IMG/VR virus record: IMGVR_UViG_3300033067_002502
Span: 32,001-96,000 of that record
Direction: 5' to 3' (one strand)
From: a virus
Taxonomy: Duplodnaviria > Caudoviricetes
DNA length: 64,000 bases
Part shown: piece after piece, positions 1,328 to 45,350 of the stretch
Layout of the letters: each line of letters opens with the position of its first letter
How positions within the stretch are numbered: position 1 is the stretch's first letter
Program-made: the position numbers and the translations under genes
Notes under the pieces: generated by a model
The model's input: only the letters and a program-made list of their open reading frames with translations
The model's database searches: none
Told to the model about the DNA's origin: nothing

Positions 1328-4300
1328 ATGGCTGAAAATCAAGGAAAACCAATTAAAATGCAGTTACCTACTAAAAAAGTATCTGCTACTATTTTGGCCT
1401 CTAAAGGAAATGTTATAAAAGACGGCAATGCTGCTAATCTTAATAATTACGCAGGATCTACTGTTCTTACTTTTCCTATTACAAAAAATTCTCAGTTTGC
1501 AGGTTCTGGTGCTAATGTTACAATGACTCAGCCTATGTTCTTTTCTCCACTGCACACTCCTCAAAACTGGCAGATTGCAAGTAAAAGAAAAGAAGTTTAT
1601 CAATGGGCAAGACATTATTACGAAAATGAACCAAAAGTTGCTGCAGGTATAGATTTTTATTCCCAATTCCCAATTAACGGAATGAAATTAACTTGTAAGA
1701 AAAAAAGCGTTATGAGATTTTATGAAAGACTTGTAGAAAAAGTAGATCTCATGTATTGGCTTAGAATGATAAGTCACCAAAGATTTCTTCTTGGTGATGT
1801 TTATGTTATGACGGAAATAGAATGCCCTCATTGTAAAGGAAGCGGCATTGATAAAGAAAGCGGAGAAAATTGCAATCATCCAGATGGAACAATAGGAAGA
1901 GTTACAGTTCTTAATCCTGATTGGATTGAAGTTATGAAAACTCCTATTTCTCAAGAACCTCAAATTGTTCTTTTGCCAGATGAGGAAATTCAAAAGATTA
2001 TTCAAACGAAACAGCCAAAATTTTTATATGATCAGATTCCAGATAATATAAAGATGCAAATTATGGCTAAAAAACCAATTCTTTTATCAAATAGAGTTAC
2101 AAGTCATATAAAGCACGGAGGAGTTCCTTATGGAACATATGGAGAGTCTTTACTTCGTCGCTTGTTTACGAGTCTTGCATACAAAACAAAATTAATGACA
2201 GCAAACTGGATTGTTGCAGAAAGGCTAATCCTCCCTGTTCGTATTGTGAAGGTTGGTTCTGATGAACGTCCAGCAGATGATGAAGCAATTGCAGATATGT
2301 CTTCTCAATTATCTGCTGTTGCAAACGATCCAAATCTTACAATCGTAACTCATAATAATGTTGAATATGAATGGTACGGGGCCTGCCAGGATAATTTAAC
2401 AGAAATTCTAACTTACAATGGTTGGAAATTGTTTAAAGATATTAGTAAAGATGAGATAGTGTCTACTTATAATAAAGACTCTGGTTTTATGCAATGGCAG
2501 CAAATACAAAAGTATCATGAATATGATTTTAAGTCAACAGAAACTCTTAAAATGATTGATTTTAAATCGAGAGGAGTTGATATTAGAGTAACTCCTAATC
2601 ATAGAATGCTTGTTCAGAGAGATGACAAATGGATTGAGGTTTTGTCTCAAGAAGTTAAGCATGGCGATAAGTTTTTAAATAATATTAATTGGCAAGGATA
2701 TTTTCCAGAAGTATTACAGTACAAAGATAGTCCTTTATCTCATCTTGTTCTTGATGATTATTTAGAATTTGTTGGCTATTATTTAAGTGAAGGCGGAGTT
2801 AAGAGAGAAACAAAACGAAATCTTTCTGTAGATAAACAAATACAAGCATGTTCTGTTGGACAAAATAGAAATAGTCCAATTTATTCTTCTATGAAAGATG
2901 TTGTAGAATTGGTTTATCCTAATTTTTCTGAAACAAAAGATGATCGAGGAAATGACACTTTTTGCAATTTTACTATTAATAATGTAAAAATTGCAAGATA
3001 TATGGCTGAAGAATTTGGCTCTAAATCTTCTGAAAAGAAAATTCCTACTTGGGTTCTTAATCTTCCTAAAAATAAATTAAAAATAGTTTATGATGCAATG
3101 ATGGCTGGAGATGGAGATTTAAGAAATGATAATATTAAACCAAGATATAGGTATACAACTACATCTAAGAATCTTTCTAATGCTTTTTCTGAAATAGTAT
3201 TAAAACTCGGGTATTTTTCATCTACATGTTTAGAAAAAGCAAAAAACGAAAGATGCAATGATATTTATAGAATTTATTGGTCAGAAGATCGAGTTGAGAC
3301 TCCTTTTGAAATAAGAAATCAACATATTTCTAGAACTGATTATGACGGTAAAGTTTATTGCGTAACTGTTCCTAATGGTTTTATAATTACTCGTCGTAAC
3401 GGAAGAATTACAGTTCAGGGTAATAGTGGAAAGATTCATAACATTAATGCAGAATTAGAATTTGTTGGTAAAGAAATTCTTGATGGATTGATGTTAAATC
3501 AAACTCTTTTAAATGGAGAAATGGCTGGCTATAACTCTGCTCAAGTTGGAGTTGAAGTTATGATTCGTCGTCTTGAGTCTTGGAGAAATGAGCTTGCTCA
3601 GTGGATTGAGAAAAATATTTTCTTACCAGTTGCTAAGATGCAAGGATTTATTGATGAAGAAGAAACAAAAGAATTCAACGAGACAACTTATCTTTATCCA
3701 AGAATTAAGTGGAATGATTTACGTCTTAGAGACAATACAAACCAACTTCAGATGTATTTGCAAATGCAACAATCTGGGTTAATATCAGCCCAAACTCTTC
3801 TTGAAGAATTTGATCTTGATTATGATTTAGAAGTTGAAAGAATAAGAGAAGAACAAGTTCAAGCTATGCAAAACGGAATGTTAGCTGGAGGTCAAGGAGC
3901 TGGTGGCGGTGGAGGAGGAATGGGTGGCGGTGGTGGTGGAGGCGGATCTCCAGGTGGTGCAGCTGGTGGAATGGATATGGGCATGGGTGGAGGAGGAGCT
4001 CCAGGAATGGATGGAGGTATGGGCGGAGCTCCAGGAATGGATGGAGGTATGGGCGGAGCTCCAGGTGGGGCTCCAGGTGGAATGGGAGCAGCAGCCGGTG
4101 GATCTCCTCAGAAGATATACAGAAAAGGAAAAGGTCCAAAAGAGGAAGAGGTAGCTCCTGTAAGACAAACAACGCTTCAATTAACAAAACCAGAATCAAA
4201 AATGTATAGAACATTAAATGCAATGTCTTTGCCATTTAGATTATTTGCTCAATATAAGCAACCAGTTCCAAATGATTCTAATTTTTATTTAATGGATTTT

Positions 4301-4630
4301 GCTATACCAGAAATAGGTGTTGATATAGAAGTTGATGGAGAGAAGTGGCATTCATCTGTTGAAGATAAACAGAGTGATAAAGAAAGAGACGTTGTTCTTG
4401 CTAAGTTAGGTTGGAGGGTTCTTAGATTTACAGAGCAAGCAATTGGAGAGCAGCTAGGAAAAGTTCAAGAAGTTATAAAGAAAGAAGTATACGACGCTGC
4501 TAAAGAAAAAAAATCTCTTTCAAAGAAGGCACAAGTAAGTCAAGAAATGAAATATGAAATAGAAAACTGTTTTGATGGATGTGAAATTTCAAGATGTTTA
4601 CCATTAGATAATGAGGTTAAAGAAGGATGA
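1328..4630 (+). CDS. Portal protein with intein, Gly/Met-rich linker and C-terminal DUF559/Vsr-like endonuclease domain
   Basis: Lies before the protease and capsid genes. Portal-like segments include YYENEPKVAAGIDFYSQFP, LNPDWIEV, HIKH..PYGTYGESLLRR, LPVRIVKVG and IKWNDLRL. An intein interrupts EWYGA/SGKI. The C-terminus has YLMDF..EVDGEKWH..DKERD..LGWRVLRF. SD AAGGA. Confidence 0.85.
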   Translation: MAENQGKPIKMQLPTKKVSATILASKGNVIKDGNAANLNNYAGSTVLTFPITKNSQFAGSGANVTMTQPMFFSPLHTPQNWQIASKRKEVYQWARHYYENEPKVAAGIDFYSQFPINGMKLTCKKKSVMRFYERLVEKVDLMYWLRMISHQRFLLGDVYVMTEIECPHCKGSGIDKESGENCNHPDGTIGRVTVLNPDWIEVMKTPISQEPQIVLLPDEEIQKIIQTKQPKFLYDQIPDNIKMQIMAKKPILLSNRVTSHIKHGGVPYGTYGESLLRRLFTSLAYKTKLMTANWIVAERLILPVRIVKVGSDERPADDEAIADMSSQLSAVANDPNLTIVTHNNVEYEWYGACQDNLTEILTYNGWKLFKDISKDEIVSTYNKDSGFMQWQQIQKYHEYDFKSTETLKMIDFKSRGVDIRVTPNHRMLVQRDDKWIEVLSQEVKHGDKFLNNINWQGYFPEVLQYKDSPLSHLVLDDYLEFVGYYLSEGGVKRETKRNLSVDKQIQACSVGQNRNSPIYSSMKDVVELVYPNFSETKDDRGNDTFCNFTINNVKIARYMAEEFGSKSSEKKIPTWVLNLPKNKLKIVYDAMMAGDGDLRNDNIKPRYRYTTTSKNLSNAFSEIVLKLGYFSSTCLEKAKNERCNDIYRIYWSEDRVETPFEIRNQHISRTDYDGKVYCVTVPNGFIITRRNGRITVQGNSGKIHNINAELEFVGKEILDGLMLNQTLLNGEMAGYNSAQVGVEVMIRRLESWRNELAQWIEKNIFLPVAKMQGFIDEEETKEFNETTYLYPRIKWNDLRLRDNTNQLQMYLQMQQSGLISAQTLLEEFDLDYDLEVERIREEQVQAMQNGMLAGGQGAGGGGGGMGGGGGGGGSPGGAAGGMDMGMGGGGAPGMDGGMGGAPGMDGGMGGAPGGAPGGMGAAAGGSPQKIYRKGKGPKEEEVAPVRQTTLQLTKPESKMYRTLNAMSLPFRLFAQYKQPVPNDSNFYLMDFAIPEIGVDIEVDGEKWHSSVEDKQSDKERDVVLAKLGWRVLRFTEQAIGEQLGKVQEVIKKEVYDAAKEKKSLSKKAQVSQEMKYEIENCFDGCEISRCLPLDNEVKEG
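2384..3424 (+). mobile_element. Intein (347 aa) with LAGLIDADG endonuclease, in the portal
   Basis: Block A CQDNLTEILTYNGWK, block B VTPNHRM, LAGLIDADG motifs VGYYLSEGG and DAMMAGDGD, block F/G YDGKVYCVTVP..RNGRITVQGN followed by +1 Ser. Confidence 0.92.
3995..4065 (+). repeat. 30-bp tandem repeat (about 2.4 copies) encoding GAPGMDGGMG
   Basis: GGAGCTCCAGGAATGGATGGAGGTATGGGC at 3995 and 4025, with a partial copy at 4055. Confidence 0.9.
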
Positions 4631-11936: not shown

Positions 11937-12827
11937 ATGAGTCTTGTAAAAACATATAATGATGAGCAAAAAGAAATGATTATTGCTCAAGCCTTGGAAA
12001 CAGACGAAGGACGTACAGCTCTTGCTCAAGCAATGGTTGAACCAATCCGTCGTTCGCTTGAATATCAAGCAGTTGGTCGTAAGCTTTTGATGGTAGACGA
12101 ACTTCCACAAGGAGCTCTTGCTCGTTACGAAAGAGACGTTGCTGCTATTGCTCACGTTGTATCTCGTAGAGGTGCAGTTCCTGATCAAATTCAGGAAGGT
12201 GAAGAAATTCTTGTTCCAACTTGGGAAATTGCAGCGAATCCAACGATTCGTCTTAGCGAAATCAAAGCTCGTAGATTCTACATTGTAGATAGAGCTCAGA
12301 TTAAGGCTAAAGAAGCAATTCAGAAAGAGGAAGATGAGCAAATCTTCAACGCATGCATCAACGCATGTCGTGCAGATCAGTCTATCGGAGGAGCTGCTCC
12401 TCTTACTCCTCAGATGCTTAATAATGCTTTCAAAGAAATTGAACAGCACGATTTAGTATGTACTAAGATTGTTATGCATGCTAACCGTTATGCAGAAGTT
12501 CGTTTCTTCAACGGTTCAGGCGGAACTCTTCCTTCTTATCGTTTCTACGACGAAGCAACCACAAGAGAAATCTTAACAACTGGTCTTTACGGCCACTTGT
12601 GGACAGCAGATCTTCATGTTTCATCTCGTATGAACATTCAGTACGTTCTTGCTGTTGCTTCTCCTGATACAGTTGGTGCTTTCCCAATTCGTCAAGATAT
12701 TACAGTTCTTCCAGCTGACGATCCTAAGAAACTTCGTCTTGGTTGGGTTATTTATGAAGAAGTTGGAGTCGCAATCATAAACGACTACGCAATTTCTCTT
12801 ATTACTCTTACCGGCGGTATAACCTAA
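11937..12827 (+). CDS. Major capsid protein, HK97 fold (Bxz1/phage G-like)
   Basis: AQAMVEPIRRSLEYQAVGRKLL.VDEL.QG..ARYE, EG.E..VPT.EIA.NP.I, IVDRAQ..AKEAIQ.EED and the C-terminal GWVIYEEVG. Strong SD and a terminator downstream. Confidence 0.85.
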   Translation: MSLVKTYNDEQKEMIIAQALETDEGRTALAQAMVEPIRRSLEYQAVGRKLLMVDELPQGALARYERDVAAIAHVVSRRGAVPDQIQEGEEILVPTWEIAANPTIRLSEIKARRFYIVDRAQIKAKEAIQKEEDEQIFNACINACRADQSIGGAAPLTPQMLNNAFKEIEQHDLVCTKIVMHANRYAEVRFFNGSGGTLPSYRFYDEATTREILTTGLYGHLWTADLHVSSRMNIQYVLAVASPDTVGAFPIRQDITVLPADDPKKLRLGWVIYEEVGVAIINDYAISLITLTGGIT

Positions 12828-12936: not shown

Positions 12937-14358
12937 ATGAAGTTTATAAATACTACTAAAAATTCGGTTCATCTTGAGGATATAAAATTATCAATACCTT
13001 ATAACGACGAGATTCCTCAACACATTGATACAGAATTAGTAAAAAGAAGTTCTTCTTTTCAACAAATGGTTTCTTTTGGAGGATTTAAAGTAATCGAAGC
13101 AACAGTAGATCGCATTGAGCAAAATCTTTTAAAATTAAGTAATTTATATAATCCAATTATTGAAGAAGAAAAAACTAGACCTAAAAGTGGGAATAAAGTT
13201 GAGGTTATATTAAGGGGTCATTTTTACGAAACGACTGGTTATTCTAAAGTAAATAGGAATTTGGCAATAAACTTATATCGTAACGGTTTTTTTGTAGAAA
13301 TAGACCCAATTTCTACAAAAAATAACGATATGAATGAAATAGAGGCAAGGGTTTTTTCATCTTTTAGAAAAACAGCAGGAAAGGATGCAATACTTATTGA
13401 TAGTGTTATTCCTTCTCAAGGAAATCCCATTAAGGGTCATTATAATATATTATATACAACTTCTGAGTGTTGTTTTGTTCCAAAACAATTTATCGAAATA
13501 GCTTCCTCCTATGATGAAATTTGGGTAACAAGTAATTTTAGTAAATCATCTTTTAAGAATAGTGGCTGTAATTCTAAAATAACAGTTGTTCCTCCAATAA
13601 TAAATAAAAATTTATACAAAGAAAATGTTTCTCCTTATTTATTTAGACCTCAATTAAGAGAATTTTCTTTTTTAAGTGTGTTGACTTGGGATTACAGAAA
13701 AGGAAGCGATGCTCTTTTAAAATCTTATTGTAAAACTTTTACAAACAGAGATGAAGTATCTCTTGTTCTTCTTATTTCAGAAAAATCAAAATCTATTCAA
13801 AAAGAGATTAAAGAAGATATTAGAAAGCATATGTCTTTTCCAAACGCTCCACATGTTCTCGTGTGTACTAAGTCAATAGTAGAGCATCAGATGCCTTCTT
13901 TTTATAAGTCTTGTAATGCTTTTGTTTTACCATCTCGCGGAGAAGGTTTTGGTCTTCCGTTCTGTGAAGCTTCTTTATGTGGTCTTCCTATTATTTCAAC
14001 AAATTATGGAGGACAGCTTGATTTTTTGTCTGAAAATAATTCAACATTAATAGATGTTGATGAATTAGAAAAAGCAAGCAAAACTGGAATACATTATTGG
14101 GATGGACAATTGTTTCCTAGTTTGAAGTCTGAATCATTTATAAATTCTCTTGCTGATGGAATGAGAAGTGTTTACTTGAATTACGGTAAGTCTGTTGAAA
14201 AAAATAAAATTTTGCAAAATAAGATTATTGAATATTTTAGCGGAGAAAAAGTTAAACATCAGACGAAGATATTATTAGATTCTGTTTGGGACTCTTTGAA
14301 AAGGCGTAAAAATGATTGTTCTATTAAATACATCAAACAAAACTATTACAATATGTGA
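12937..14358 (+). CDS. GT4-family (GT-B) glycosyltransferase with an extra N-terminal domain
   Basis: TGYSKVNR, DEIWVTS, YRKG.D.LLKSY and FVLPSRGEGFGLPFCEA (intact EX7E). Confidence 0.88.
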   Translation: MKFINTTKNSVHLEDIKLSIPYNDEIPQHIDTELVKRSSSFQQMVSFGGFKVIEATVDRIEQNLLKLSNLYNPIIEEEKTRPKSGNKVEVILRGHFYETTGYSKVNRNLAINLYRNGFFVEIDPISTKNNDMNEIEARVFSSFRKTAGKDAILIDSVIPSQGNPIKGHYNILYTTSECCFVPKQFIEIASSYDEIWVTSNFSKSSFKNSGCNSKITVVPPIINKNLYKENVSPYLFRPQLREFSFLSVLTWDYRKGSDALLKSYCKTFTNRDEVSLVLLISEKSKSIQKEIKEDIRKHMSFPNAPHVLVCTKSIVEHQMPSFYKSCNAFVLPSRGEGFGLPFCEASLCGLPIISTNYGGQLDFLSENNSTLIDVDELEKASKTGIHYWDGQLFPSLKSESFINSLADGMRSVYLNYGKSVEKNKILQNKIIEYFSGEKVKHQTKILLDSVWDSLKRRKNDCSIKYIKQNYYNM

Positions 14359-33967: not shown

Positions 33968-36900
33968 ATGAATGTTTTTAGCATAATAAATAAATTAAAA
34001 GATAGTTTTTTGAAAGAAGCAGTATCTTTAAAAAAATACAGACAACCGGATATAACTCAAGACGAAAAAGATAAACCTTTTTCATCTTATGTTCCTCCTG
34101 TAGCAGGAGGAGGTCTTATTCCTCCTAAAAAGCAAAGTCCAGCCACTGGAGGAGATTTGTCTGTTGATAAGTCTCCTATTTCTAATTCTAATATTGGGAA
34201 TAGTCCTGTTGTGCAAAAGAAAGACACTATCGCTAAAACTGTTCCTCAATTTTTGCAAGTATATAAAGTGATGTTTAATAAAGAAGTATCAGATTTTTCT
34301 AGCAGAAATCCAATTACAAATTATCAAATTATTGAAGAAATTTTTAAGCCATTTTTATTAGAACAAAGAGAAAGTCTTGAAAATAATCTAGATCTTCCTA
34401 ATTGGGAAAACAGGCTTGAAGCTCTTAAACTTTTTGAAGAAGTATTTAATAATGAAATAAGAGGACATGTAGAGGGAGAGTCTGTTCCAGAAGATTCTAT
34501 TGATAGAAGACAGTATCCTGATTTATCTGATAAGGAAATGAGAAACCTTATTGAAAGAAATATTAGTTCGTTTGCAGGAGGTATGGGTGGAAGATCTAAG
34601 GCTTTGAAACAAATTGCAACTCTTCCAGAAATTGTTCAAAATGACGCTAATAGTAGGCTTTTTGAAAGAATAAAAACAGAGTATCAAGGAAGTATAAATC
34701 AAAGCGAATTAACAGATCAAGATAGAAAAGATTTAATAAAAATCTTTATGGATAGTTATTTAAATACCGCAAAAGCTAAGAATCCTCAAGAAAAAGCAAA
34801 AATTCAATCTAGATTAATGGCTCTTATGCCTGATATGGAAAAAGATCCTTATCTTATTCCTGAAAAAGATGATTTTGAAAGAAGTACAAGGAAAAAACCA
34901 AAAGTGAGAGGTAGGCGTAGAGATGAAGCGGAGGATATTTTAGATGCTCCTAGAGAAGATTTTGCTAAGTCTTTTCAACTTAAAAAAGAATCAGCAAAGC
35001 CGGTTCCTGTTATAAATCCTTTTGATTTTATTGAAAAAGAATTATTTCAACCAGATTCTTTAAATAAAGAATTATTCTTATCTTTCTTTTTAGAGAAAGG
35101 CAATACAGGTCTTATTCCAGTTGAAGATTATTCAGATCCAAGAGATTCAGCTATTTTAAGAGATCAGTCTGGTACTTATAAATCCGAAGCAATGGGTTTA
35201 GTTCAGCAGCATTCTAAAGAACTTGCAGAAATTCTAAAAGGGATTATGACTAATCCAAACGATCCAAACCATGATAAATTCTTTTCATGGGTTCTTAATG
35301 AAATAAGAAGATTTGGAATAAGAAAAGAAGATCCAAGAAACACAGTTGAAGAATCTAGTGCTGTTGATTCTGATGGAAAGGCAATGGGAGGAACACTAAC
35401 TAGCTCAGATGTTGGTTTTGCTTCAGAATTCCGTCTTCCTCTTTCTAAAAACGTAATATTTGAAGAGGGATTAAAGAATACAGGACCAAAAGTAATTCCT
35501 GGTAAAACAGTTGATTTAGATACTATTGAAAGCTTTAAGCAGAATGCAATGAAATTTATTGGATTTGTTTCAGATATGTTAAAAAACATGGAAGAAGTAT
35601 ACAGTACTTCTGATAATAAAGACTTAAAGAAGGCAATTTTAGAAAGACTTGTTTATTGGGGAAGAGTAAAAAGATCTTGCGAAGATTCCGCTAAAGTGAT
35701 AATTGGAGAAGCAGAGTCTTCTAACAGAACTGGAAAAAATCTAACTGATAGAAGATCTATTCTTATTTTAAATCAAAATTGGGATGACTTTTTCAAGAAG
35801 GAACATTTTATAGAATATGGATGGAATTTAGAAGATTCTCCTGATATTTCTTCAGCAGTAAATCTTGCTATTAGAGATAAACTTCTTCCTATTGATGGAG
35901 GGTTTATACAAGATCCCAACCAAGCATATGAAGAAATGTTTGGAGGAATTGATATTAGCGATAGAGGTGCTGCAAACAAGATATTAAATAGATCAAGAGG
36001 TAAACTCCCTCTTTTGAAAGATCTTATTATAAATCCAGAACTTATACAAAAGTATGATCGAGATACTTTGATATCATTTCTTGACGTTATTGGTATTCCT
36101 CCAGATTCTATTAGTATAGGAGCTTTACTTGCTAAAAATAACAAAGGGTCATTTGAGAATAAAATGAATTATCTTAGTGAATTATCAAGAAAAGGAGTTA
36201 TTCAGAAAAATGATGCAGAAATTGAAAATATGTCTCCTCAAGAAATATCAGATTTATTTGAAACAGTTAGATCTCATTTAGAAATGATTTATTCTACAAA
36301 TGGTGAATTAAAGAAAATGCTAGGAGATTCTAGTATTGTTAATGTTAGTGATCAAGAAGTTTCACGTATTGCTTCTGAAGCAGGCATTTCTAATATTAAT
36401 AATAAGGAAGATTATAGAAAAGCAAATAATGCCGCTAAAATGGCTATTACTGCTCAATTTTATAAAACAAATTTCGGTAAATATTGTGTAGAAAAAATTT
36501 CAAATATTGAAGCTTTTGAAATCTATGTTGAAAAATCTATTAGAGAATCTTGTAATAATCCAGCATTTTTGCAATCTAATGGTTTTTCAGATAAAAATGA
36601 GTTTTTAAATTCAATAGGAGTTGAGCCTTTGAATATTGGAGATTCTGTAAAAGAAATGCCAGAAAGAAGACTTTTTCAAATTGCAAATAAGCACTATAAT
36701 AAGTTATATAAAGCTTATAGAAAAGGATTATTGTCAAAAGGTCTTTTGGATAAAAATAAAGATAAAACAGTTGAAGAAGTTGTTAATAGTATTATAGATT
36801 TACCTGAAATAGAGCCAGCTAGAATGTTAAATCAATTACCTGATGCTTTGTTTTTTGCAGAAGCCCTTGATAGCAAGCCTTCCGAAAAAGAAGCTTCTGT

Positions 36901-37042
36901 AATCTATGAAATTATTCGTAAGATTGCTATGCAAAAGAAAGAAAATCAGTCGCTTCTTTTAAAGCAAAGATTGTCTAGATTTAATGTCGATACACAGGGA
37001 GTGGACGATATTCTTGAAAAAATAAAAAATGGAAGAAGATAA
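33968..37042 (+). CDS. Large helical hypothetical protein, possible internal virion protein
   Basis: 1024 aa, strong SD and a late-type promoter; FLKEA near the N-terminus and IRKIA near the C-terminus. Confidence 0.6.
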   Translation: MNVFSIINKLKDSFLKEAVSLKKYRQPDITQDEKDKPFSSYVPPVAGGGLIPPKKQSPATGGDLSVDKSPISNSNIGNSPVVQKKDTIAKTVPQFLQVYKVMFNKEVSDFSSRNPITNYQIIEEIFKPFLLEQRESLENNLDLPNWENRLEALKLFEEVFNNEIRGHVEGESVPEDSIDRRQYPDLSDKEMRNLIERNISSFAGGMGGRSKALKQIATLPEIVQNDANSRLFERIKTEYQGSINQSELTDQDRKDLIKIFMDSYLNTAKAKNPQEKAKIQSRLMALMPDMEKDPYLIPEKDDFERSTRKKPKVRGRRRDEAEDILDAPREDFAKSFQLKKESAKPVPVINPFDFIEKELFQPDSLNKELFLSFFLEKGNTGLIPVEDYSDPRDSAILRDQSGTYKSEAMGLVQQHSKELAEILKGIMTNPNDPNHDKFFSWVLNEIRRFGIRKEDPRNTVEESSAVDSDGKAMGGTLTSSDVGFASEFRLPLSKNVIFEEGLKNTGPKVIPGKTVDLDTIESFKQNAMKFIGFVSDMLKNMEEVYSTSDNKDLKKAILERLVYWGRVKRSCEDSAKVIIGEAESSNRTGKNLTDRRSILILNQNWDDFFKKEHFIEYGWNLEDSPDISSAVNLAIRDKLLPIDGGFIQDPNQAYEEMFGGIDISDRGAANKILNRSRGKLPLLKDLIINPELIQKYDRDTLISFLDVIGIPPDSISIGALLAKNNKGSFENKMNYLSELSRKGVIQKNDAEIENMSPQEISDLFETVRSHLEMIYSTNGELKKMLGDSSIVNVSDQEVSRIASEAGISNINNKEDYRKANNAAKMAITAQFYKTNFGKYCVEKISNIEAFEIYVEKSIRESCNNPAFLQSNGFSDKNEFLNSIGVEPLNIGDSVKEMPERRLFQIANKHYNKLYKAYRKGLLSKGLLDKNKDKTVEEVVNSIIDLPEIEPARMLNQLPDALFFAEALDSKPSEKEASVIYEIIRKIAMQKKENQSLLLKQRLSRFNVDTQGVDDILEKIKNGRR

Positions 37043-37229
37043 AGACTTATTTAAAATAGATAAAATGGTTGGTGTTTGTGGGTTTTGTAGACATCATCAG
37101 CATAATCCAACTATAGAATTTAATTTTGGAGATTCTAAAGTATACTGGCTATGTCCTTCTTGTAAAAAAATGAATGAAATGGATTTTTCAAAAAATCTTC
37201 CTAAGTCTTACCCTAAAACTAGGAGATAA
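37029..37229 (+). CDS. Small Zn-ribbon protein
   Basis: CGFC..CPSC. Confidence 0.65.
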   Translation: MEEDKDLFKIDKMVGVCGFCRHHQHNPTIEFNFGDSKVYWLCPSCKKMNEMDFSKNLPKSYPKTRR

Positions 37230-37231
37230 TA

Positions 37232-37798
37232 GTGTTTGTAGTAAAAAATATAACAAAAAACGAAATTTCGATACCAGATCTTAGGATAAATTTATCTCCA
37301 GGAGATCAGGTTGATTTAGATATGGTTACTTCTCGGTTTTATATAGAACAATCATGGACTCTTAAAGGATTACTTCGCAATCATGGTCTTAAGTGTATAG
37401 TAAAAGATGACGGAAGTGGGGTTTATCAAATAAAAACAGCAGAAAATCCATCTTATAATCCAAATGAAAAAACCTCATCTGACGTAATAGCTGCAGTAAA
37501 AAATCTTGAAGAAAAATTATCTAAACGATTAGATGAAAAAATTGCTTCTCAATCTCAACAACCTCAAATAGATATAAATTTACTTAATCAAGCTTTATCT
37601 GCTTTACAAGGAATAGCTTCACAATCTATTAAGGGTAATGTAGAAAAAACGGATGTAGACAATTCTTTGGTTGTTGATATCCAAAAAAGAACTCTAGATA
37701 GGCTGTCTAACAGTTCTACCTCAAATGTAAAGCATGAAGAGCAAATAACCGATAATAATGTATCTAAAAATATAGAAGAACTAGAAGGCTTGTTGTAA
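37232..37798 (+). CDS. Hypothetical protein upstream of the actin; N-terminal domain resembles that of 12937
   Basis: GTG start after AGGAG; KN.TKN.I...DL N-terminus and a coiled-coil-like C-terminus. Confidence 0.65.
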   Translation: MFVVKNITKNEISIPDLRINLSPGDQVDLDMVTSRFYIEQSWTLKGLLRNHGLKCIVKDDGSGVYQIKTAENPSYNPNEKTSSDVIAAVKNLEEKLSKRLDEKIASQSQQPQIDINLLNQALSALQGIASQSIKGNVEKTDVDNSLVVDIQKRTLDRLSNSSTSNVKHEEQITDNNVSKNIEELEGLL

Positions 37799-37813
37799 TA
37801 AAAAGGAAATAAT

Positions 37814-38641
37814 ATGGCTAATAGCAGAGCGGTGGCAGTAGCAGTAGCAGTTACAGAGGAAGAGATTAAAGATGTTGAACAACAGTTAAAGGAACTAGCC
37901 AATTGTAGAATATTTATTTGCGGTGATAGGTTTTGGAATTATTCTGTTTTTGATGGCATGATGCTTTCAGATGGACATTTGCAAAAATCTACAAAAAGTA
38001 AAAATGCTAGATTTTCTTTATCTTGTAAATATGAAGAATTTGCAAAAACTTTTCAACGATTAAGTGGTAGTTTTAATTGGACAGAATCACATTGTAGGGA
38101 TATTTATGACAAAAGAACTAATAAAACATATACTTCCTGGAGATTATCTAGTAAAACTGATGAAAGATTTACCATTGAACATAAACGATGGTATCCTGAA
38201 GGCAAAAAGATAGTTCCAAAAGATTTGATTCTTGATAAAACTACTCTTGTTTGGTGGTATTTAGGAGATGGTTCTTTGAATCGCAAGAAGTCTAGGCCCA
38301 ATTATAGAAGAGTTGTTTTTTGTACGCAGGGTTTTACGGTTCAAGATGTTGATTTCCTAAAATTAAAACTTGAAGAATTATTTGGTAATGATTCTATTTA
38401 TATAGAAGAAAATCAAATTATTATTGCCAAACAATCTCTTTGTAGTTTTATTAAATTTATAGGAATAGAAAGTCCAGTTTCTTGTTACCAATATAAGTTT
38501 GATTTTGGACCATATATAAACGAAAATTATTGGAAGAAAAGTTTTGAAGATAGACCTTTGAAGTATATAAATGAATATAGAAAGATGAACAAAGTAAGAG
38601 AGTTGAACTACAAATCAAAAGAGGAGATTAATCATGGCTAA
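37814..38641 (+). mobile_element. Free-standing LAGLIDADG homing endonuclease gene
   Basis: FDGMMLSDGHL and WWYLGDGSL motifs, WYP.GKKIVP and FCTQGFT. Confidence 0.88.
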
Positions 38642-39692
38642 TTCAAGAGTTCTGGGCGTGGATCTCGGAACAATGTTTTTTCAAGTTGCAGAAATGGATG
38701 GTTCTTTAGTTAAAGTAAAGAATACTCGTAATGCTTTTGTTGAGCTTCCAAAATCAGATGATGTAGAAGAAGCACTTAAAAGTAATAATTGGCAATACAT
38801 AAAAGATGGAGATAATTATTATGTAGTTGGCGATGATTGTATAAAAGTTGCAAATATTTTTCCAGGCAAAGTAGAAGTTCGTAGGCCTATGGCAGATGGA
38901 GTTCTTAATAAAAATGAAGATAAAAAACTTGTTGTCCTTGCTGAACTTGTAAAGGCATCTATAGGAAAAGCTCCTGATGATAAGTCTTGGGTTTGTACTT
39001 GCGTAAGTTCTGAATCAATTGACGGTTCTTCTGATTCTACTTTTCATAAAAACAGAGTAACTGCTTTGTTTACTCGTTTAGGTTGGAAGGTTAAGATAAT
39101 TGAAGAAGCCCATGCTGTTGTATTAAGTGAAAGACCTACTATTATTGAAGAAGATGGTACTGTTATTCCTTATTCTGGAATTGGTATTTCGTTTGGAGCA
39201 GGAAGGGTAAATTGTTTATTAGCTTATAAAGGCTTGCCAGTTATAGGAATGTCTGTTGCTAGATCTGGTGATTGGGTTGATAAGCAAGTATCTGAGCAAA
39301 CAGGAGTTGCTATTTCTCAAGTTATTTCAACTAAGGAACGAAAATTAGACTTTACTAAAATAGATGACGACGATGATGTTCTTTTTGCTTTAAATGCTTA
39401 CTACGATGTTATGATTGAGTATGTTTTTAAACATTTTGGAAATAAATTTCAAGAAGTAAAAAGCCAATTTACTCAACCTCTTGATATTATAGTTGCTGGA
39501 GGAACAAGTATGCCTAAAGGTTTTTGCCAGAAATTAGAGAAAATAGTAAGAGGGTTAGAATTGCCGTTCCAAATTAAAGAAGTAAGACATGCAAAGAATC
39601 CTAGAAATTCAGTAGTAGAAGGTTTGTTGACTCAAGCTCTTATAACACAGAAAAAAGAGGTTTCAGAAGCTTTAGACAAAATACTAACCTAA
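38634..39692 (+). CDS. Actin-fold ATPase, volactin-like
   Basis: Phosphate-1 VLGVDLGTM, RNAFVE, RRPM.DGVL, connect-1 IEEAHAV, phosphate-2 GIGISFGAG, ARSGDWVD and the adenosine motif IVAGGTS. Confidence 0.85.
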   Translation: MANSRVLGVDLGTMFFQVAEMDGSLVKVKNTRNAFVELPKSDDVEEALKSNNWQYIKDGDNYYVVGDDCIKVANIFPGKVEVRRPMADGVLNKNEDKKLVVLAELVKASIGKAPDDKSWVCTCVSSESIDGSSDSTFHKNRVTALFTRLGWKVKIIEEAHAVVLSERPTIIEEDGTVIPYSGIGISFGAGRVNCLLAYKGLPVIGMSVARSGDWVDKQVSEQTGVAISQVISTKERKLDFTKIDDDDDVLFALNAYYDVMIEYVFKHFGNKFQEVKSQFTQPLDIIVAGGTSMPKGFCQKLEKIVRGLELPFQIKEVRHAKNPRNSVVEGLLTQALITQKKEVSEALDKILT

Positions 39693-39703: not shown

Positions 39704-40432
39704 ATGGCATATGCAACAACAACACAAGTTTATGATATTCTTGCTCAAGCTCTTACAAGCGCAACAAATAGGGTTGTGAACGGTCAGCCAGTTCCTTTAT
39801 GGACATTTGGAAAAAGTAAAGACGGTAATGTTATTTCTGATGATACTGTTCTTCAGTATATAACTTGGGCAGGAGAACAAATAGATGCTTCAATAAGCGA
39901 AATGTATGTTACTCCCTTAAGTGAAAAATCAGATTTAGAACTTGCTCTTTTGTCAGATATTGATACATATAATGACACAGTTCAAGTAGATAAAGCTGTT
40001 GTATTGAATCCAGGAGATACTCTTGTTTTTATTAGCGATTTATCAGAAGAAAGACATACTGTTTCTTCTATAACGAATAATACAGATATAGAATTGCAAG
40101 ATGCACTACTTGGTGTATATCATGTAGAAACTACTAGAATTATAAGAGTAAAGTTTCCATCAACTATTAGTTTAATGTGCGCAAGGTTCGCTGCTGCAAG
40201 TATTTATGACAAATACTTTGCTTCTCAAGCGAATCCAAATATTTCAGATTATGGTAAAACACTTAGAAAGTGGGCTGTATCTGACTTAAATGCAATATTA
40301 AATGGAATTGTCATTCTTCATGGACAAAAAAGAATAGGACATCGCTTCTTCAATCCTACACTAAGAGACAGATATGGATTGCCTCCTTTGGATAAGGATT
40401 TCAATATTAAAATTGAAGGAGGAGATGCATGA
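39704..40432 (+). CDS. Head-tail connector/adaptor (Mu gp36/DUF1320-like) with an inserted domain
   Basis: MAYAT..V, I..A.EQIDA.I..Y..P, CARFAA..IY and A..DL..I..G pattern. Confidence 0.6.
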   Translation: MAYATTTQVYDILAQALTSATNRVVNGQPVPLWTFGKSKDGNVISDDTVLQYITWAGEQIDASISEMYVTPLSEKSDLELALLSDIDTYNDTVQVDKAVVLNPGDTLVFISDLSEERHTVSSITNNTDIELQDALLGVYHVETTRIIRVKFPSTISLMCARFAAASIYDKYFASQANPNISDYGKTLRKWAVSDLNAILNGIVILHGQKRIGHRFFNPTLRDRYGLPPLDKDFNIKIEGGDA

Positions 40433-40677
40433 AAAGTCCAGGAAAAGATGGATTTGATCAGATAATTGATTTGATTAGTGAGATTAAAAATTTAGATGGA
40501 AGAAAAATACAAGATGTAACTTTTTCATCAAAGATTGTTATTAGTAAAACTCCAGATGAAGCAAAAAAAAGAAGCGATTATCAACAATTTCTTAGAGACA
40601 ATCTTGCAGAAGAAGAAGAATTGGGTAGTCATGCTAAGAATTTTGTTGAAGATATAGTTAGAAAACATTTGGATTAA
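40429..40677 (+). CDS. Hypothetical protein
   Basis: ATGA overlap and SD GGAGG. Confidence 0.6.
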   Translation: MKSPGKDGFDQIIDLISEIKNLDGRKIQDVTFSSKIVISKTPDEAKKRSDYQQFLRDNLAEEEELGSHAKNFVEDIVRKHLD

Positions 40678-40683
40678 AATAAC

Positions 40684-41589
40684 ATGCTAGAATTTTTAGA
40701 AAGCGTTAGAAGGACAATATATAGGTGGGTAAATACAACCGTTCCTTTAACGGCTGACTGTTCTTATGGTTCTACTACCGTTACTGTTACTTCGTCAAGA
40801 AGATTCCGTGTTGGTGATGAGGTCTCTATTCATGACGGAGTTAACGGAGAGCCAGGTTTGAGAATTAGCGAAATTCCAGATGATAATACTGTTATTCTTG
40901 TAAGCCCAATTAAAGTTATAACAGGTTGGAGAGTTTCTTCGGGAGCTATGCTTACAAAAACATACGATGGACAATTTGTTCAAGCTTTATATTTAGGAGA
41001 TCCAGATGTTATTCCTCGTTATCCTGCAATAGCGATTCTTGGACAAAAAAGTACATCTGAGTGGTTTACTTTAGGAACAACTAAAGAGAGATATGAATTA
41101 CAAATAGTTGTTTATGCAGAAAATGACGGGCAAGAAGCTTCTTATAAATCTGTTATGCAAATTGCAAACATTATACAGCTTGGACTTAAGAAGAATTTTT
41201 ACCCACTTATTGGTCCTTATGAAACAGTAAATGTTACTGCAAACGTTTCTGATGGAGATCAATTTATAAAAGTTGCAGATTCTTCAATATTTTCATGCGA
41301 AGATAAGATTCTTATTGAAAATGTTTATCAAGCAGAAGAATTAAGGGTTGCAGCGATTCCTGATTCAACAACAATACAAGTTTGGCCTAATATTTTTAAT
41401 GATTATTTAACAACGGATCAATCTAAAATAATTAGATTAACTAGGTTTGTCTATAATTCTTGGCCTAGTAGTGTTGATTATGGATTTAAATACAAAGGGA
41501 CGCTTCTTCATGCAGCAAGTATAAGTTGGTTTGGAGAAGAACAAGAAATACAAACTCGTCATGGATGGTCAGATCCTCAACTTTCTTAA
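40684..41589 (+). CDS. Putative tail terminator/completion protein with inserted beta domains
   Basis: LYLGD..IP.YPAI.I..EW..ERY.L.I.VY pattern, located between the adaptor and the tail tube. Confidence 0.5.
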   Translation: MLEFLESVRRTIYRWVNTTVPLTADCSYGSTTVTVTSSRRFRVGDEVSIHDGVNGEPGLRISEIPDDNTVILVSPIKVITGWRVSSGAMLTKTYDGQFVQALYLGDPDVIPRYPAIAILGQKSTSEWFTLGTTKERYELQIVVYAENDGQEASYKSVMQIANIIQLGLKKNFYPLIGPYETVNVTANVSDGDQFIKVADSSIFSCEDKILIENVYQAEELRVAAIPDSTTIQVWPNIFNDYLTTDQSKIIRLTRFVYNSWPSSVDYGFKYKGTLLHAASISWFGEEQEIQTRHGWSDPQLS

Positions 41590-42525: not shown

Positions 42526-43698
42526 ATGATGAAAATATTAACAATTGGAGCTTCTCCTTACCTTCTTGTTCGTAACGGTAAGATTAATGCTGATATTATA
42601 AATAGACTTGTTTTTGAAGGACATGATGTTTCTTCTGCTGTTTGGCATCATGATGAAGGTTATTTTATGCCATCAGAAGAAGGTGTTCATTCTTATGAAA
42701 AAGATAATAAAAATATTTGTCAACTTTATCCTTTTTCTCCTAAAACAGACGAGTCTTCTCCTTTTATTTATGAGTTAATGAAATCTGTTCAGCCTGAAAT
42801 TGTTATAACCATAGGAGATCATAAGGATACTAATTTTTTATATGCTATAAAAGCAATGTATCCTAATTTATTTAAATGGATTGCTATTTATACAATTGAT
42901 TGTAATGGAATACCGTCACAAAATAAAGATGCATTTGAATATGCTGATTATATTATTACAACAAATGAATTTTCTTTGAAGGAAATTTCTTCCTTTGCCA
43001 ATGTTGAAGGATTATTTATTCCATATGGACCAGATAAGGTCTTTAAATATGATAAATCTTCTAAAAGAGATTTAATTTTGTGTTCTTCTAGAAATGCACA
43101 ATCAAGTAATATTGCTTCTTTCTTAAAATCAACTTCTGGTGTTGAATTTTGTAAATTTATTCCATATTTGCATACGAATATGTACGATCCAGGCGATTAC
43201 AGTATAGATAGTCTTAAGGAAAAGTATAAATCAGAGTATTTGCAATATACAACAGATTATTGTTCTATTAAGGAAGGAATTACTGAAAATAAAATGGTAG
43301 AAATATACAATAGATCTGCAATTATTGTGGATTGTTCAATTAAATCAGCTACTGGATTGTCTTTGCTAGAGGGAATGGCTTGTGGGTGTATTCCTGTTGG
43401 CATGGATTATGGAAGAATTGGAGAGATTATATCTCTTATGCCAGAAAAATACAGATTTACTGTTCCTTATAATATTTTTGTTGGTCAGAATGAAGAAGAA
43501 TTTGCAATTATTTGTCCAAACAAACTCAGAATGACATTGCTTGAGATAAAGAATAAAATGGGTGCTTTGCAAGAGGCATCAGAAGCTGCAATAAACGTTG
43601 CAAATATGTTTTCTAACAAATCTTTTGTTGACAAATTGTTAGATATTATTCAAAAAGTACGTTTTTCTAAAGAGTCAATAGCTTTAGATGTTATTTAA
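42526..43698 (+). CDS. GT4-like glycosyltransferase
   Basis: MKILTIG, QPEIVITIGD, IPYG.D and IYNRS.I.V..S....TGLSLLEGMACG.IPV. Confidence 0.8.
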   Translation: MMKILTIGASPYLLVRNGKINADIINRLVFEGHDVSSAVWHHDEGYFMPSEEGVHSYEKDNKNICQLYPFSPKTDESSPFIYELMKSVQPEIVITIGDHKDTNFLYAIKAMYPNLFKWIAIYTIDCNGIPSQNKDAFEYADYIITTNEFSLKEISSFANVEGLFIPYGPDKVFKYDKSSKRDLILCSSRNAQSSNIASFLKSTSGVEFCKFIPYLHTNMYDPGDYSIDSLKEKYKSEYLQYTTDYCSIKEGITENKMVEIYNRSAIIVDCSIKSATGLSLLEGMACGCIPVGMDYGRIGEIISLMPEKYRFTVPYNIFVGQNEEEFAIICPNKLRMTLLEIKNKMGALQEASEAAINVANMFSNKSFVDKLLDIIQKVRFSKESIALDVI

Positions 43699-44291: not shown

Positions 44292-45350
44292 ATGGCTATA
44301 CCATACGCTCAAATGGGATTTGTTGGGTCTGTTAGATTTAGTGGAGGATCTATTGGACAAGAAATATTTGTTAGGGCTAAGTCTTGCGACATAAGAGCAA
44401 AGCAGGAAATATCTTATCCAGATGTAGTTGATGGTCGTATTGATAGAACTCTTTATCAAATTGGACCAAGAACTGTTGATGGGAATTGCGATTTTCCTCT
44501 AGTTCACGAAGGAATAGTTAATGGAACTCAAAAGAATTGCGGAGAAGGAACTGCCACTTGCGAAACAAATTTAGCTAACAGACTTTGGAATATTGCAGCT
44601 AAAAGAGATCAAGTAGGTAGACTTGTAAATCAATTCAATATAGATGTTCGTTATACAGATAACACTGCTTATAGATATCCAAATTGTATTATAAATACAA
44701 TGAAAATAAATGTTACTCAAAGCGCAGAAGTAAATATGAGCTTTGGAGTTATTGGTGGATCTAATTCTACAGATAATGTTAGAGAAATTATTTCAGAAGA
44801 CAGAGCTCCTGTTTTTATGTCACCTGCTCGTATTGTTACTTGGAATGATTTTAGAATAAATGTTTTTGTTAGAGAAGAAAGCATAACTCTTCCAGGAGCT
44901 TATATTAGGTCATTTGATGTTACTTTAAACAACAATGCAGATCGTTTCTATACATTGAACGGAAAACTAGCTCCTCAAGATATTACAGCAAAAAAGAGAG
45001 CAATTGAAGGAAGTCTTTCTCTTATGGGTTTTGCTAATAAGCAATTTTATGATTTCATCTATAATAATCAAAATCGCTTTACTTCTCAAACTAAGATTCA
45101 GTTCGGATATACTCTTGGAAGTGGATCTGTTCCTTATTGGGCAACCGCTTTATGGGGTGTTATTTTTCAGATTGAAGAAGTTGCTATCAGTAATGAACTC
45201 ATTGAAACAAGAGTTCCTTTTGTTGCTTTAGGTGACTGCGAAAATGATTACGAAGCTATTGAACTAGGAACATGCAATGTTAGCGTCGATAATTCTAACG
45301 CAACATTTGGCGGTCCAACAGCTCCTGGTTACTTTACTCCTTTGAGCTAA
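44292..45350 (+). CDS. Major tail (tube) protein
   Basis: R.VDG..DFP, YP.C.IN...I.V and IRSFDVTLNNN..R.YTL..DI.A.KR.IEGSL; directly upstream of the chaperone and tape measure genes. Confidence 0.7.
   Translation: MAIPYAQMGFVGSVRFSGGSIGQEIFVRAKSCDIRAKQEISYPDVVDGRIDRTLYQIGPRTVDGNCDFPLVHEGIVNGTQKNCGEGTATCETNLANRLWNIAAKRDQVGRLVNQFNIDVRYTDNTAYRYPNCIINTMKINVTQSAEVNMSFGVIGGSNSTDNVREIISEDRAPVFMSPARIVTWNDFRINVFVREESITLPGAYIRSFDVTLNNNADRFYTLNGKLAPQDITAKKRAIEGSLSLMGFANKQFYDFIYNNQNRFTSQTKIQFGYTLGSGSVPYWATALWGVIFQIEEVAISNELIETRVPFVALGDCENDYEAIELGTCNVSVDNSNATFGGPTAPGYFTPLS

What the first reader, a model, noticed from the sequence alone, without database searches (positions are those of the whole stretch)
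37029..39692. Volactin-like actin embedded in the phage head-tail joining module
Seen: a complete actin-fold ATPase lies immediately before the head-tail adaptor gene, preceded by a Zn-ribbon gene and a coiled-coil gene. Known (recalled, unverified): the motif series G.D.GTM, RN.FVE, YVVGDD...ANIF, RRPM..G.L, G.GISFGAG..N..LAY, ARxGDW.D and GGTS.P.GF matches haloarchaeal volactin more closely than MreB, ParM or FtsA. Characterised jumbo-phage cytoskeletons are mostly tubulin (PhuZ). Inference: an actin-based system for positioning or moving capsids or organising assembly, with 37232 as a candidate adaptor. Being targeted by a homing endonuclease would imply the gene is conserved.
Basis: partly seen in the sequence, partly recalled or inferred. 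Interest (0 to 1): 0.82.

Follow-up and report, generated by a model that had tools for sequence, protein, structure and literature searches.

The report
Volactin-type actin module in huge phage
An uncultured phage of about 500 kb, related to Bacillus phage G, carries between its head and tail genes an intact actin-like gene of the "volactin" family with its own partner gene, so these phages probably build their own actin filaments, which I found in no paper.

Summary
ORF 38634-39692 (352 aa) matches Pfam Volactin PF25216 over its full length (E 4.8e-64, 217 bits; MreB 19.5 bits). All nucleotide-binding motifs are intact and the AlphaFold model is very confident (pLDDT 96.6).

Its nearest solved relatives by profile are filament formers: MamK, BeeR, FtsA and MreB.

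The gene sits in a one-strand morphogenesis block, in the order portal, major head protein, protease, PhoH, 1024-aa ORF, Zn-ribbon, coiled-coil partner, homing endonuclease, actin, Mu-gp36-like adaptor, tail tube. This order recurs in 19 IMG/VR contigs, three of them complete genomes of 488-498 kb. It also recurs in two distant phage lineages where the actin is only 33-37% identical.

The coiled-coil gene 37232-37798 is a dedicated partner. Homologues lie directly upstream of the closest cellular volactin genes, in Planctomycetota chromosomes.

The homing endonuclease is present in some genomes and absent in others. It sits inside the first codons of the actin gene. Relatives carry inteins at four sites in the most conserved motifs.

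Polymerisation and any role in virion assembly are inferred, not shown. This scan has noted similar phage volactin modules in at least 85 other genomes. I found no paper describing them.

The parts
33968..37042 (+). 1024-aa ORF of unknown function that precedes the module and overlaps the Zn-ribbon gene start
   Evidence: No Pfam or PHROG match. Syntenic homologues at 22-39% identity in related phage loci. A 1052-aa ORF lies two genes upstream of the Zn-ribbon gene in the distant lineage L110; homology not shown.
37029..37229 (+). Zn-ribbon protein (66 aa) with a conserved basic C-terminal tail (P-K/R-T-R-R); found only in the phage loci
   Evidence: Weak Pfam Zn-ribbon hits. Its profile finds it in 18 phage loci, in L109 (E 1e-25) and in L110 (E 5e-15), but in no cellular volactin locus.
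37232..37798 (+). Dedicated partner of the actin (188 aa): a confident N-terminal alpha/beta domain of about 60 aa, a variable helical middle, and a conserved C-terminal helix ending ELEGLL
Evidence: Always directly upstream of the actin in phage loci. Alignment. AF2 N-domain pLDDT above 91, mean 72. No solved fold match.
37814..38641 (+). LAGLIDADG homing endonuclease inserted after about codon 8 of the actin gene. It is read from the old actin start (MANSRAVAV...), and its 3' end supplies a new ribosome-binding site and start for the actin.
   Evidence: PF03161 E 9e-22, phrog_11023 E 1e-22. Present in L003-L006 and L014, absent in L002, L007-L013 and L015-L019. Junction comparison of L002 (without it) and L003 (with it).
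38634..39692 (+). Volactin-family actin-fold ATPase (352 aa), intact, one copy per genome
   Evidence: PF25216 E 4.8e-64, full length. AF2 pLDDT 96.6, pTM 0.93. Fold matches: BeeR Z 28.2, MreB Z 26.7, crenactin Z 25.9. Profile against PDB sequences: MamK 9e-16, BeeR 2e-11. It carries all invariant family residues. One copy in each of five related phage records searched, three of them complete genomes.
39704..40432 (+). Probable head-tail adaptor (Mu gp36 / DUF1320 type), 11 bases after the actin stop
   Evidence: Alone it is weak: PF07030 E 0.018, phrog_195 E 5e-4. Across the family, 12 of 16 homologues hit PF07030, best E 1.7e-5. Atlas neighbour cluster named Mu Gp36, score 0.95. Syntenic in all loci.
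40429..41589 (+). Two further syntenic ORFs of unknown function (82 aa and 301 aa), probably neck genes by position only
   Evidence: Conserved in position in the related loci. No convincing family match.
44292..45350 (+). Tail tube protein; marks the tail module downstream
   Evidence: PF18906 Phage_tube_2 E 5e-16, phrog_290 E 4e-16.
11937..12827 (+). Major head protein; marks the head module upstream and places the phage near Bacillus phage G
   Evidence: phrog_2522 E 5.5e-58. 48.6% identical to the phage G major head protein.

Best explanation
Shown. The window comes from an uncultured phage of about 500 kb, related to Bacillus phage G. It encodes an intact Volactin-family actin as a fixed, vertically inherited gene of its virion-morphogenesis block. 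A phage-only Zn-ribbon gene and a dedicated partner gene always precede it, and a Mu-gp36-type head-tail adaptor gene always follows it. The partner-plus-actin pair is also a chromosomal two-gene cassette in Planctomycetota, whose actins are the phage clade's closest cellular relatives.

Inferred. The actin binds ATP and polymerises into dynamic filaments, as Haloferax volactin does in vivo and as its nearest solved relatives do. The partner dimerises through its helical middle and contacts the actin through its conserved N-terminal domain and/or its conserved C-terminal tail (ELEGLL in phages, DLLSNL in Planctomycetota). Both ends are conserved between phage and cell, so the partner more likely regulates, nucleates or caps the filament than chooses the cargo. 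The phage-only Zn-ribbon protein is the better candidate for a phage-specific link.

Most speculative step. Because the module is packed into the late structural block, and these phages have neither tubulin nor an Alp/ParM actin, the filaments most likely organise late infection. They could position or move large capsids, or hold the site where heads meet necks and tails. That would be an actin counterpart of the PhuZ spindle of nucleus-forming jumbo phages.
For: Family and integrity: PF25216, 217 bits, full length; all invariant and motif residues kept; pLDDT 96.6. Nearest relatives polymerise: (MamK, BeeR, FtsA, MreB by profile; the only other hit at E<=0.01 is EutJ, a weak match with no significant stretch); volactin polymerises dynamically in vivo (PMC10869688). 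Phage origin and size: IMG/VR record, 34% of an estimated genome; relatives of 488-498 kb with terminal repeats; phage G head protein, 48.6%. Block structure. Synteny: 19 loci; two lineages with the actin at 33-37% identity and the same gene order. Partner; the Planctomycetota loci are cellular (TPR protein, histidine kinase, sigma-54 regulator; GC 63-75% against 33% here). Tree: the phage clade has support 1.0 and lies inside a clade with support 0.98 that also holds the partner-bearing Planctomycetota. Selective weight: endonuclease and four intein sites in the phosphate-2 and R-x-GDW-x-D motifs. No tubulin and no ALP_N actin in three complete relatives. Fusions elsewhere in the family point to cytomotive use: ParB-HTH::volactin, and tandem double actins.
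Against: Nothing here shows polymerisation, ATPase activity, a partner-actin contact or time of expression. Gene position in a huge phage is weak evidence of timing or function. The fold search does not separate filament formers from Hsp70 (BiP Z 24.0 against BeeR 28.2). Plant closteroviruses use an Hsp70-like actin-fold protein in virion assembly without filaments (my own knowledge; such proteins appear). The partner is shared with cells that make no virions, so the pair itself is not capsid-specific. Phage G has an Alp7A/ParM-type 'partition protein' and no volactin, while this clade has the reverse. That could mean the module handles DNA rather than capsids. The actin is less conserved than the major head protein.
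Confidence: 0.55

Rival explanations
1. It is a DNA-positioning or partition system of the ParMRC/AlpACS kind. The actin filament, through the partner or the Zn-ribbon protein acting as a DNA-binding adaptor, moves or anchors the 500-kb phage genome, for replication, packaging, or plasmid-like carriage.
For: The known prophage actin AlpC with its adaptor AlpA does this (PMC4446434, PMC5539076). Phage G has an Alp7A-type 'partition protein' plus a small neighbouring gene and no volactin, while this clade has a volactin and no ALP_N actin. ParB-HTH::volactin fusions exist elsewhere in the family. The layout is a small adaptor-like gene next to the actin.
Against: There is no centromere-like repeat array and no non-coding space near the cassette. 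Neither the partner nor the Zn-ribbon protein matches any DNA-binding family. The module is embedded in the structural block rather than in a replication region. Synteny with the adaptor gene holds even at 33-37% actin identity.
Confidence: 0.2
2. It is a host-takeover cytoskeleton. The phage actin and its partner, of cellular origin, reshape or enlarge the host cell or block its division to make room for very large virions.
For: Volactin acts in cell-shape transitions in Haloferax (PMC10869688). The same pair is chromosomal in Planctomycetota. MamK-like actins have been linked to large or shape-shifting cells: Bbp (PMC10580974) and saltatorellin (bioRxiv 10.1101/817700). Whether those two belong to PF25216 was not tested.
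Against: There is no membrane-binding segment in the actin or the partner (sequence). The fixed position beside the adaptor gene is not explained. The host is unknown, and the phage's GC of 33% does not fit the 63-75% GC Planctomycetota that carry the pair.
Confidence: 0.1
3. It is a non-polymerising actin-fold ATPase that acts as an assembly chaperone or virion-associated protein, like closterovirus Hsp70h.
For: The position is among assembly genes. The fold is also close to Hsp70 nucleotide-binding domains (BiP Z 24.0). Viral Hsp70h proteins appear in the viral fold search.
Against: By sequence profile the nearest solved relatives are MamK, BeeR, FtsA and MreB; no Hsp70 reaches E 0.01. There is no substrate-binding domain (352 aa, one domain). 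The founding family member forms filaments (PMC10869688). Tandem double-actin relatives exist.
Confidence: 0.1

Closest known systems
Volactin (VolA, HVO_2015) of Haloferax volcanii; Pfam PF25216
   Same: Same Pfam family, matched over the full length above the curated cut-off. Same motif set, including RRPM and R-x-GDW-x-D. Like volA, the gene has a conserved neighbouring gene.
   Different: It is encoded by a tailed phage inside its morphogenesis block. The neighbour is a soluble helical protein plus a Zn-ribbon protein, not the four-TM CdpA-like HVO_2016 (PMC12126565). In my tree the phage clade sits with Planctomycetota sequences. I could not fetch the HVO_2015 sequence, so there is no direct pairwise comparison.
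AlpC/AlpA of Corynebacterium glutamicum prophage CGP3
   Same: A phage-encoded actin-like protein with an adjacent adaptor gene that serves the virus itself (PMC4446434, PMC5539076).
   Different: It probably belongs to a different actin family: the ALP_N/ParM-type model gave only a sub-threshold match in the C. glutamicum control genome, whose locus I did not see. AlpA binds defined DNA sites, and none are evident here. AlpAC is not in a structural gene block.
PhuZ tubulin spindle of nucleus-forming jumbo phages
   Same: A phage-encoded cytoskeletal polymer in a very large phage. It is the proposed functional analogue, since PhuZ filaments position the phage nucleus and deliver capsids (my own knowledge; reviews PMC7950403, PMC8314001).
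   Different: Different protein superfamily (tubulin against actin). No tubulin is present in this record or in three complete relatives. The analogy is one of function only and is untested.
Bacillus phage G gp506 'partition protein' (Alp7A/ParM type)
   Same: An actin-fold protein in the closest cultured relative, with a small neighbouring gene.
   Different: Different family: ALP_N plus Alp7A_like_C, with BLASTP E 1.1 against the window actin. It lies on the opposite strand, far from the head genes. Phage G has no volactin-type gene.
MamK, BeeR and MreB (solved filament-forming bacterial actins)
   Same: Nearest solved relatives by profile and fold: MamK E 9e-16, BeeR E 2e-11 and Z 28.2, MreB Z 26.7.
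   Different: Only 15-20% identity. The MreB Pfam model scores below its cut-off. Different genomic context and different partners.

Membership tests
Volactin family (Pfam PF25216) | Full-length match to the family profile above its curated cut-off (35 bits) | tested here: met
   217.3 bits, E 4.8e-64, residues 7-335 on profile positions 3-321 of 321. Repeated on the genome copy.
Volactin family (Pfam PF25216) | Intact actin-fold nucleotide-binding motifs (phosphate 1 DxGT, phosphate 2 GxSxGAG..N, adenosine GGTS..GF) and the family motifs RRPM and R-x-GDW-x-D | tested here: met
   D10, G12, T13, R84, P85, G188, G190, N193, G212, D213, D216, G289, G290, G296 and F297 are invariant or nearly invariant columns, and all are present in the window protein.
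Volactin family (Pfam PF25216) | Four-subdomain actin fold | tested here: met
   AF2 pLDDT 96.6, pTM 0.93. BeeR Z 28.2 (rmsd 3.7, 309 aligned), MreB Z 26.7, crenactin Z 25.9.
Volactin family (Pfam PF25216) | Dynamic nucleotide-dependent polymerisation (shown for H. volcanii VolA) | not testable with these tools
   Needs protein biochemistry or imaging. Known only for VolA (PMC10869688).
Volactin family (Pfam PF25216) | Adjacent CdpA-like membrane protein, as in H. volcanii (an associated feature, not a defining one) | tested here: not met
   The upstream gene here is a soluble helical protein of another family. hhalign gives only 24% probability against the membrane protein upstream of the Archaeoglobaceae volactins.
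ParMRC / AlpACS-type segregation locus | Actin of the ParM/Alp families (ALP_N, ParM, StbA models) | tested here: not met
   No such Pfam model hits the protein at E<=0.1. ALP_N is absent from three complete relatives.
ParMRC / AlpACS-type segregation locus | Centromere-like repeat array beside the operon | tested here: not met
   No tandem or clustered repeats between 31000 and 41000. The genes abut or overlap.
ParMRC / AlpACS-type segregation locus | Adjacent small DNA-binding adaptor | tested here: inconclusive
   Two small adjacent genes exist, but neither matches a DNA-binding family or fold. DNA binding was not testable.
MreB (Pfam PF06723) | Match above the curated cut-off (27 bits) | tested here: not met
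   19.5 bits, partial.
Mu gp36 / DUF1320 head-tail adaptor (ORF 39704-40432) | Match to PF07030 | tested here: inconclusive
   The window protein scores 15.6 bits against a cut-off of 24.7. However, 12 of 16 homologues hit it, best E 1.7e-5. A DUF1320 chain scores E 0.11 in the PDB profile search.

The most novel reading that the evidence does not exclude
A large clade of roughly 500-kb phages builds its own actin cytoskeleton from three genes (volactin-type actin, a dedicated partner shared with Planctomycetota, and a phage-only Zn-ribbon protein). It uses this cytoskeleton late in infection to position or move giant capsids at the head-to-tail joining step. This would be an actin-based counterpart of the PhuZ tubulin spindle, and evidence that cytoskeletal modules move between huge phages and bacteria.
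Probability: 0.35. Interest if true: 0.85.

Novelty: new variant of a known kind. Interest (0 to 1): 0.7.

Why it matters
Phage-built cytoskeletons are known mainly from the PhuZ tubulin of nucleus-forming jumbo phages and from ParM/Alp-type partition actins. A different actin family, fixed inside the virion-assembly block of a widespread clade of 500-kb phages and carrying its own partner, would be a second, independent answer to the problem of organising a very large virus inside a small cell.

It also gives the poorly understood volactin family a defined candidate binding partner, conserved in phages and in Planctomycetota. That partner can be tested directly.

One practical point follows. 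Phage contigs carrying this actin are binned into cellular MAGs, including one named as an Asgard archaeon. This matters for surveys of archaeal actins.

Tried and rejected
1. Rosetta-stone test. Profiles of the Zn-ribbon protein and the partner found nothing in the N-terminal extensions of longer volactin homologues. Those extensions are other things, such as ParB-HTH or a second actin domain.
2. Partner fold. Only generic coiled-coil rows with Z below 5 and no Foldseek match (best YqbF, E 1.1). The Atlas gave only unnamed viral clusters.
3. Common origin of the upstream genes of different cellular volactin subclades. hhalign gave no convincing link (best 24% probability).
4. Centromere-like repeats. 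None found.
5. Promoter and terminator scan. No more promoter-like sites than in shuffled sequence, so it is uninformative. One hairpin at 38649-38671 lies inside the actin coding region.
6. Absent from the actin, the Zn-ribbon protein and the adaptor. Single occurrences in the partner and the 1024-aa ORF are what chance would give.
7. tblastn of the adaptor against cultured phages. No match.
8. The broad 35-sequence alignment was too diverse for the genome scan. Relatives cannot be drawn for a virus record.
9. Cluster look-ups gave almost no names.
10. I could not obtain the H. volcanii VolA sequence, nor Bbp or saltatorellin sequences. Their placement relative to the phage clade is untested.
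11. 'Recent passenger gene from Planctomycetota' is rejected. The gene order holds in phage lineages whose actins are only 33-37% identical.
Full report
**What is there.** All ORFs from 32 kb to 46 kb of the window lie on the + strand and are tightly packed. ORF 38634-39692 encodes 352 residues that match Pfam Volactin (PF25216) over the whole profile: E 4.8e-64, 217 bits, cut-off 35. MreB_Mbl reaches only 19.5 bits, below its cut-off of 27, and no ParM, Alp or FtsA model hits. Aligned with 117 relatives, the protein carries every invariant or nearly invariant family residue. These include the phosphate-1 loop (D10, G12, T13), the RRPM motif, the phosphate-2 loop (G188, G190, N193), the family motif R-x-GDW-x-D (G212, D213, D216) and the adenosine loop (G289, G290). 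AlphaFold2 on that alignment gives a very confident single-domain actin fold, with pLDDT 96.6 and pTM 0.93.

**Where it comes from.** The window is bases 32001-96000 of a 170-kb IMG/VR virus record that CheckV rates 34% complete, which implies a genome near 500 kb. The major head protein (11937-12827) is 48.6% identical to that of Bacillus phage G (497.5 kb), the closest cultured relative. Relatives in IMG/VR include three complete or near-complete records of 488, 494 and 498 kb, two of them with terminal repeats.

**Gene map.** PHROG and Pfam searches give this order:
- portal at 1328-4630, with intein-like and HNH-like segments
- a 1992-aa ORF
- major head protein, glycosyltransferase and head protease
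- collagen-like fibre genes
- PhoH, a DNA methyltransferase and a 1024-aa ORF
- the Zn-ribbon gene, the helical partner gene, a LAGLIDADG endonuclease and the actin
- ORF 39704-40432, then 82-aa and 301-aa ORFs, and a glycosyltransferase
- tail tube at 44292-45350 (PF18906, E 5e-16), followed by four ORFs of 900-1300 aa

ORF 39704-40432 on its own hits Mu gp36 and a head-tail adaptor PHROG only weakly. At family level 12 of 16 homologues hit PF07030, with best E 1.7e-5, so 'head-tail adaptor' is probable but not proven.

**Conservation and synteny.** The word-indexed search found 610 homologues at 60-87% identity, on contigs up to 467 kb. The exhaustive search found 824 clusters at E<=0.001. 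In 19 IMG/VR loci the order PhoH, (methylase), large ORF, Zn-ribbon, partner, (endonuclease), actin, adaptor, small ORF, 301-aa ORF, glycosyltransferase, tail tube is kept. Two much more distant phage lineages were reached through representatives P0133 and P0142. Their actins are only 33-37% identical, yet they keep the same order, and profile searches confirm the Zn-ribbon and partner genes there. Across those loci the actin (59-87% identity) is better conserved than any gene within 12 kb of it. It is less conserved than the major head protein, at 87/82/69/68/59% against 89/86/85/84/75%. Each of the five related records searched, three of them complete genomes, has one copy.

**The partner.** A profile of ORF 37232-37798 finds the same gene in every related phage locus. 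It also finds homologues directly upstream of the volactin gene in a dozen Planctomycetota MAG loci (L024-L036). Those loci are cellular. Downstream lie a TPR protein, a histidine kinase and a sigma-54 response regulator, and their GC is 63-75% against 33% here. The proteins share three features:
- an N-terminal domain of about 60 residues, with N6, D28 and D30 invariant and R35, S41 and K58 nearly so, and pLDDT above 91
- a variable helical middle
- a conserved C-terminal helix that ends ELEGLL in phages and DLLSNL in Planctomycetota

In a FastTree phylogeny rooted on a Desulfosarcina MreB, the phage clade has support 1.0. That clade holds the window, 16 IMG/VR loci and two library representatives. 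It lies inside a clade with support 0.98 that also contains these partner-bearing Planctomycetota sequences. The shared partner gene independently supports that grouping. The direction of transfer is not resolved. The Zn-ribbon gene was found only in phage loci. Other cellular volactin subclades each have their own conserved upstream gene: a multi-TM protein in Archaeoglobaceae, and long coiled-coil proteins in a second Planctomycetota group and in Omnitrophota. These are not detectably homologous to one another. In H. volcanii the neighbour is a CdpA-like membrane protein (PMC12126565).

**Selfish elements.** The endonuclease gene is present in five of the 19 loci and absent from the rest, always at the same place. 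I compared L002, which lacks it, with its close relative L003, which has it. The insertion lies after about codon 8 of the actin, just before the codons of the phosphate-1 loop. The endonuclease is read from the original actin start. The 3' end of the insert brings a new ribosome-binding site, a new start and new first codons for the actin. This explains why both ORFs in the window begin MANSR. Relatives of 700-800 aa carry inteins (Hint and LAGLIDADG or HNH domains) at four sites. Three sites are in or just after the phosphate-2 loop and one is in the R-x-GDW-x-D motif. Such elements settle in sequences that cannot change, so these motifs are functionally essential.

**Does it polymerise?** This cannot be shown here. 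Several lines favour it:
- The founding family member forms dynamic filaments in vivo (PMC10869688).
- By sequence profile the nearest solved proteins are MamK (9e-16), BeeR (2e-11), FtsA and MreB (about 4e-8), all filament formers. No Hsp70 or sugar kinase reaches E 0.01.
- The best fold matches are BeeR (Z 28.2), MreB (26.7) and crenactin (25.9).
- Family members exist as tandem double actins and as ParB-HTH fusions.

Against it, the fold score of an Hsp70 nucleotide-binding domain (Z 24.0) is not far behind. The fold alone therefore does not decide.

**What it does.** I see four readings.
- Virion assembly (my preferred reading). The module is an invariant part of the morphogenesis block and abuts the adaptor gene. 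Three complete relatives have neither tubulin nor an ALP_N-type actin. I therefore think the most likely role is spatial organisation of late infection, such as capsid positioning or transport, or holding the head-tail joining site. The partner would act as a filament regulator, because both of its conserved ends are shared with cells that make no virions. The Zn-ribbon protein is the candidate phage-specific link.
- DNA positioning (the strongest rival). Phage G has an Alp7A/ParM-type 'partition protein' (gp506) with a small neighbour and no volactin, the reverse of this clade. The known prophage actin AlpC works through a DNA-binding adaptor (PMC4446434, PMC5539076). Against this, there are no centromere-like repeats and no DNA-binding signature near the cassette.
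- Host reshaping. Less likely, but not excluded.
- An Hsp70h-like chaperone role. Also less likely, but not excluded.

**Novelty.** Full-text searches for volactin, phage actin, actin-like with huge or jumbo phages, and related terms found no description of a volactin-type actin in phages. Earlier notes of this scan report similar modules in at least 85 other genomes. One of them, on the same clade, also notes the Planctomycetota partner. These are unreviewed notes and not independent evidence, but they agree with what I tested here.

Noticed in passing
window 37814-38665: The LAGLIDADG endonuclease ORF starts with the original first codons of the actin gene. The end of the insert carries a new ribosome-binding site and start for the actin. 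The result is a gene-splitting insertion that leaves both genes translatable.
   Followed up: yes
L054 (JBECUL010000084.1, 7.6 kb): A contig binned into a 'Candidatus Asgardarchaeum abyssi' MAG carries the phage Zn-ribbon, partner, actin, adaptor and 301-aa genes in phage order, at 34% GC. It is almost certainly a mis-binned huge-phage fragment, which is a hazard for surveys of Asgard actins.
   Followed up: partly
P0123 cluster (includes MBT6045721.1, 'Candidatus Scalindua sp.', contig 158,812 bp): An intein-bearing actin of the phage clade (56% identical) is filed under an anammox planctomycete MAG. This is either mis-binning or a hint at the host. Other members are filed under Clostridiales and Phenylobacterium MAGs.
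   Followed up: no
P0121, P0123, P0124, P0129, P0136-P0138, P0151, P0153, P0177, P0183, P0208: Inteins sit at four different sites of volactin-family proteins: IS|CGAG, GAGM|CN, N(I/V)|C(F/I) and AR|CGDWID. All are in the phosphate-2 loop or in the family's GDW motif.
   Followed up: partly
P0247, P0197; P0130, P0173: Volactin domains occur fused to an N-terminal ParB-type HTH (P0197 above the Pfam cut-off). They also occur as two complete actin domains in tandem in one protein.
   Followed up: partly
L038-L053, L058-L092, L055-L059 (cellular volactin loci): Each cellular volactin subclade has its own conserved gene directly upstream. In Archaeoglobaceae it is a multi-TM membrane protein. In a second Planctomycetota group and in Omnitrophota it is a long coiled-coil protein. 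In Nitrospirota it is a protein of about 170 aa. They are not detectably related to each other.
   Followed up: partly
L113:2261-3376 (-), Bacillus phage G gp506 and gp505: Phage G encodes an Alp7A/ParM-type actin annotated 'partition protein', with a small neighbouring gene, far from its head genes. It has no volactin-type gene.
   Followed up: partly
window 1328-4630: The 1100-aa portal ORF has portal matches at both ends. In the middle it has matches typical of intein and HNH endonuclease segments, so the portal gene probably carries an intein.
   Followed up: no
window 38649-38671: A terminator-like hairpin followed by a T run lies inside the actin coding region, over the phosphate-1 codons and just after the endonuclease junction. 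It may be chance.
   Followed up: no
window 12937-14358 and 42526-43698: Glycosyltransferase genes sit inside both the head module and the neck/tail module.
   Followed up: no
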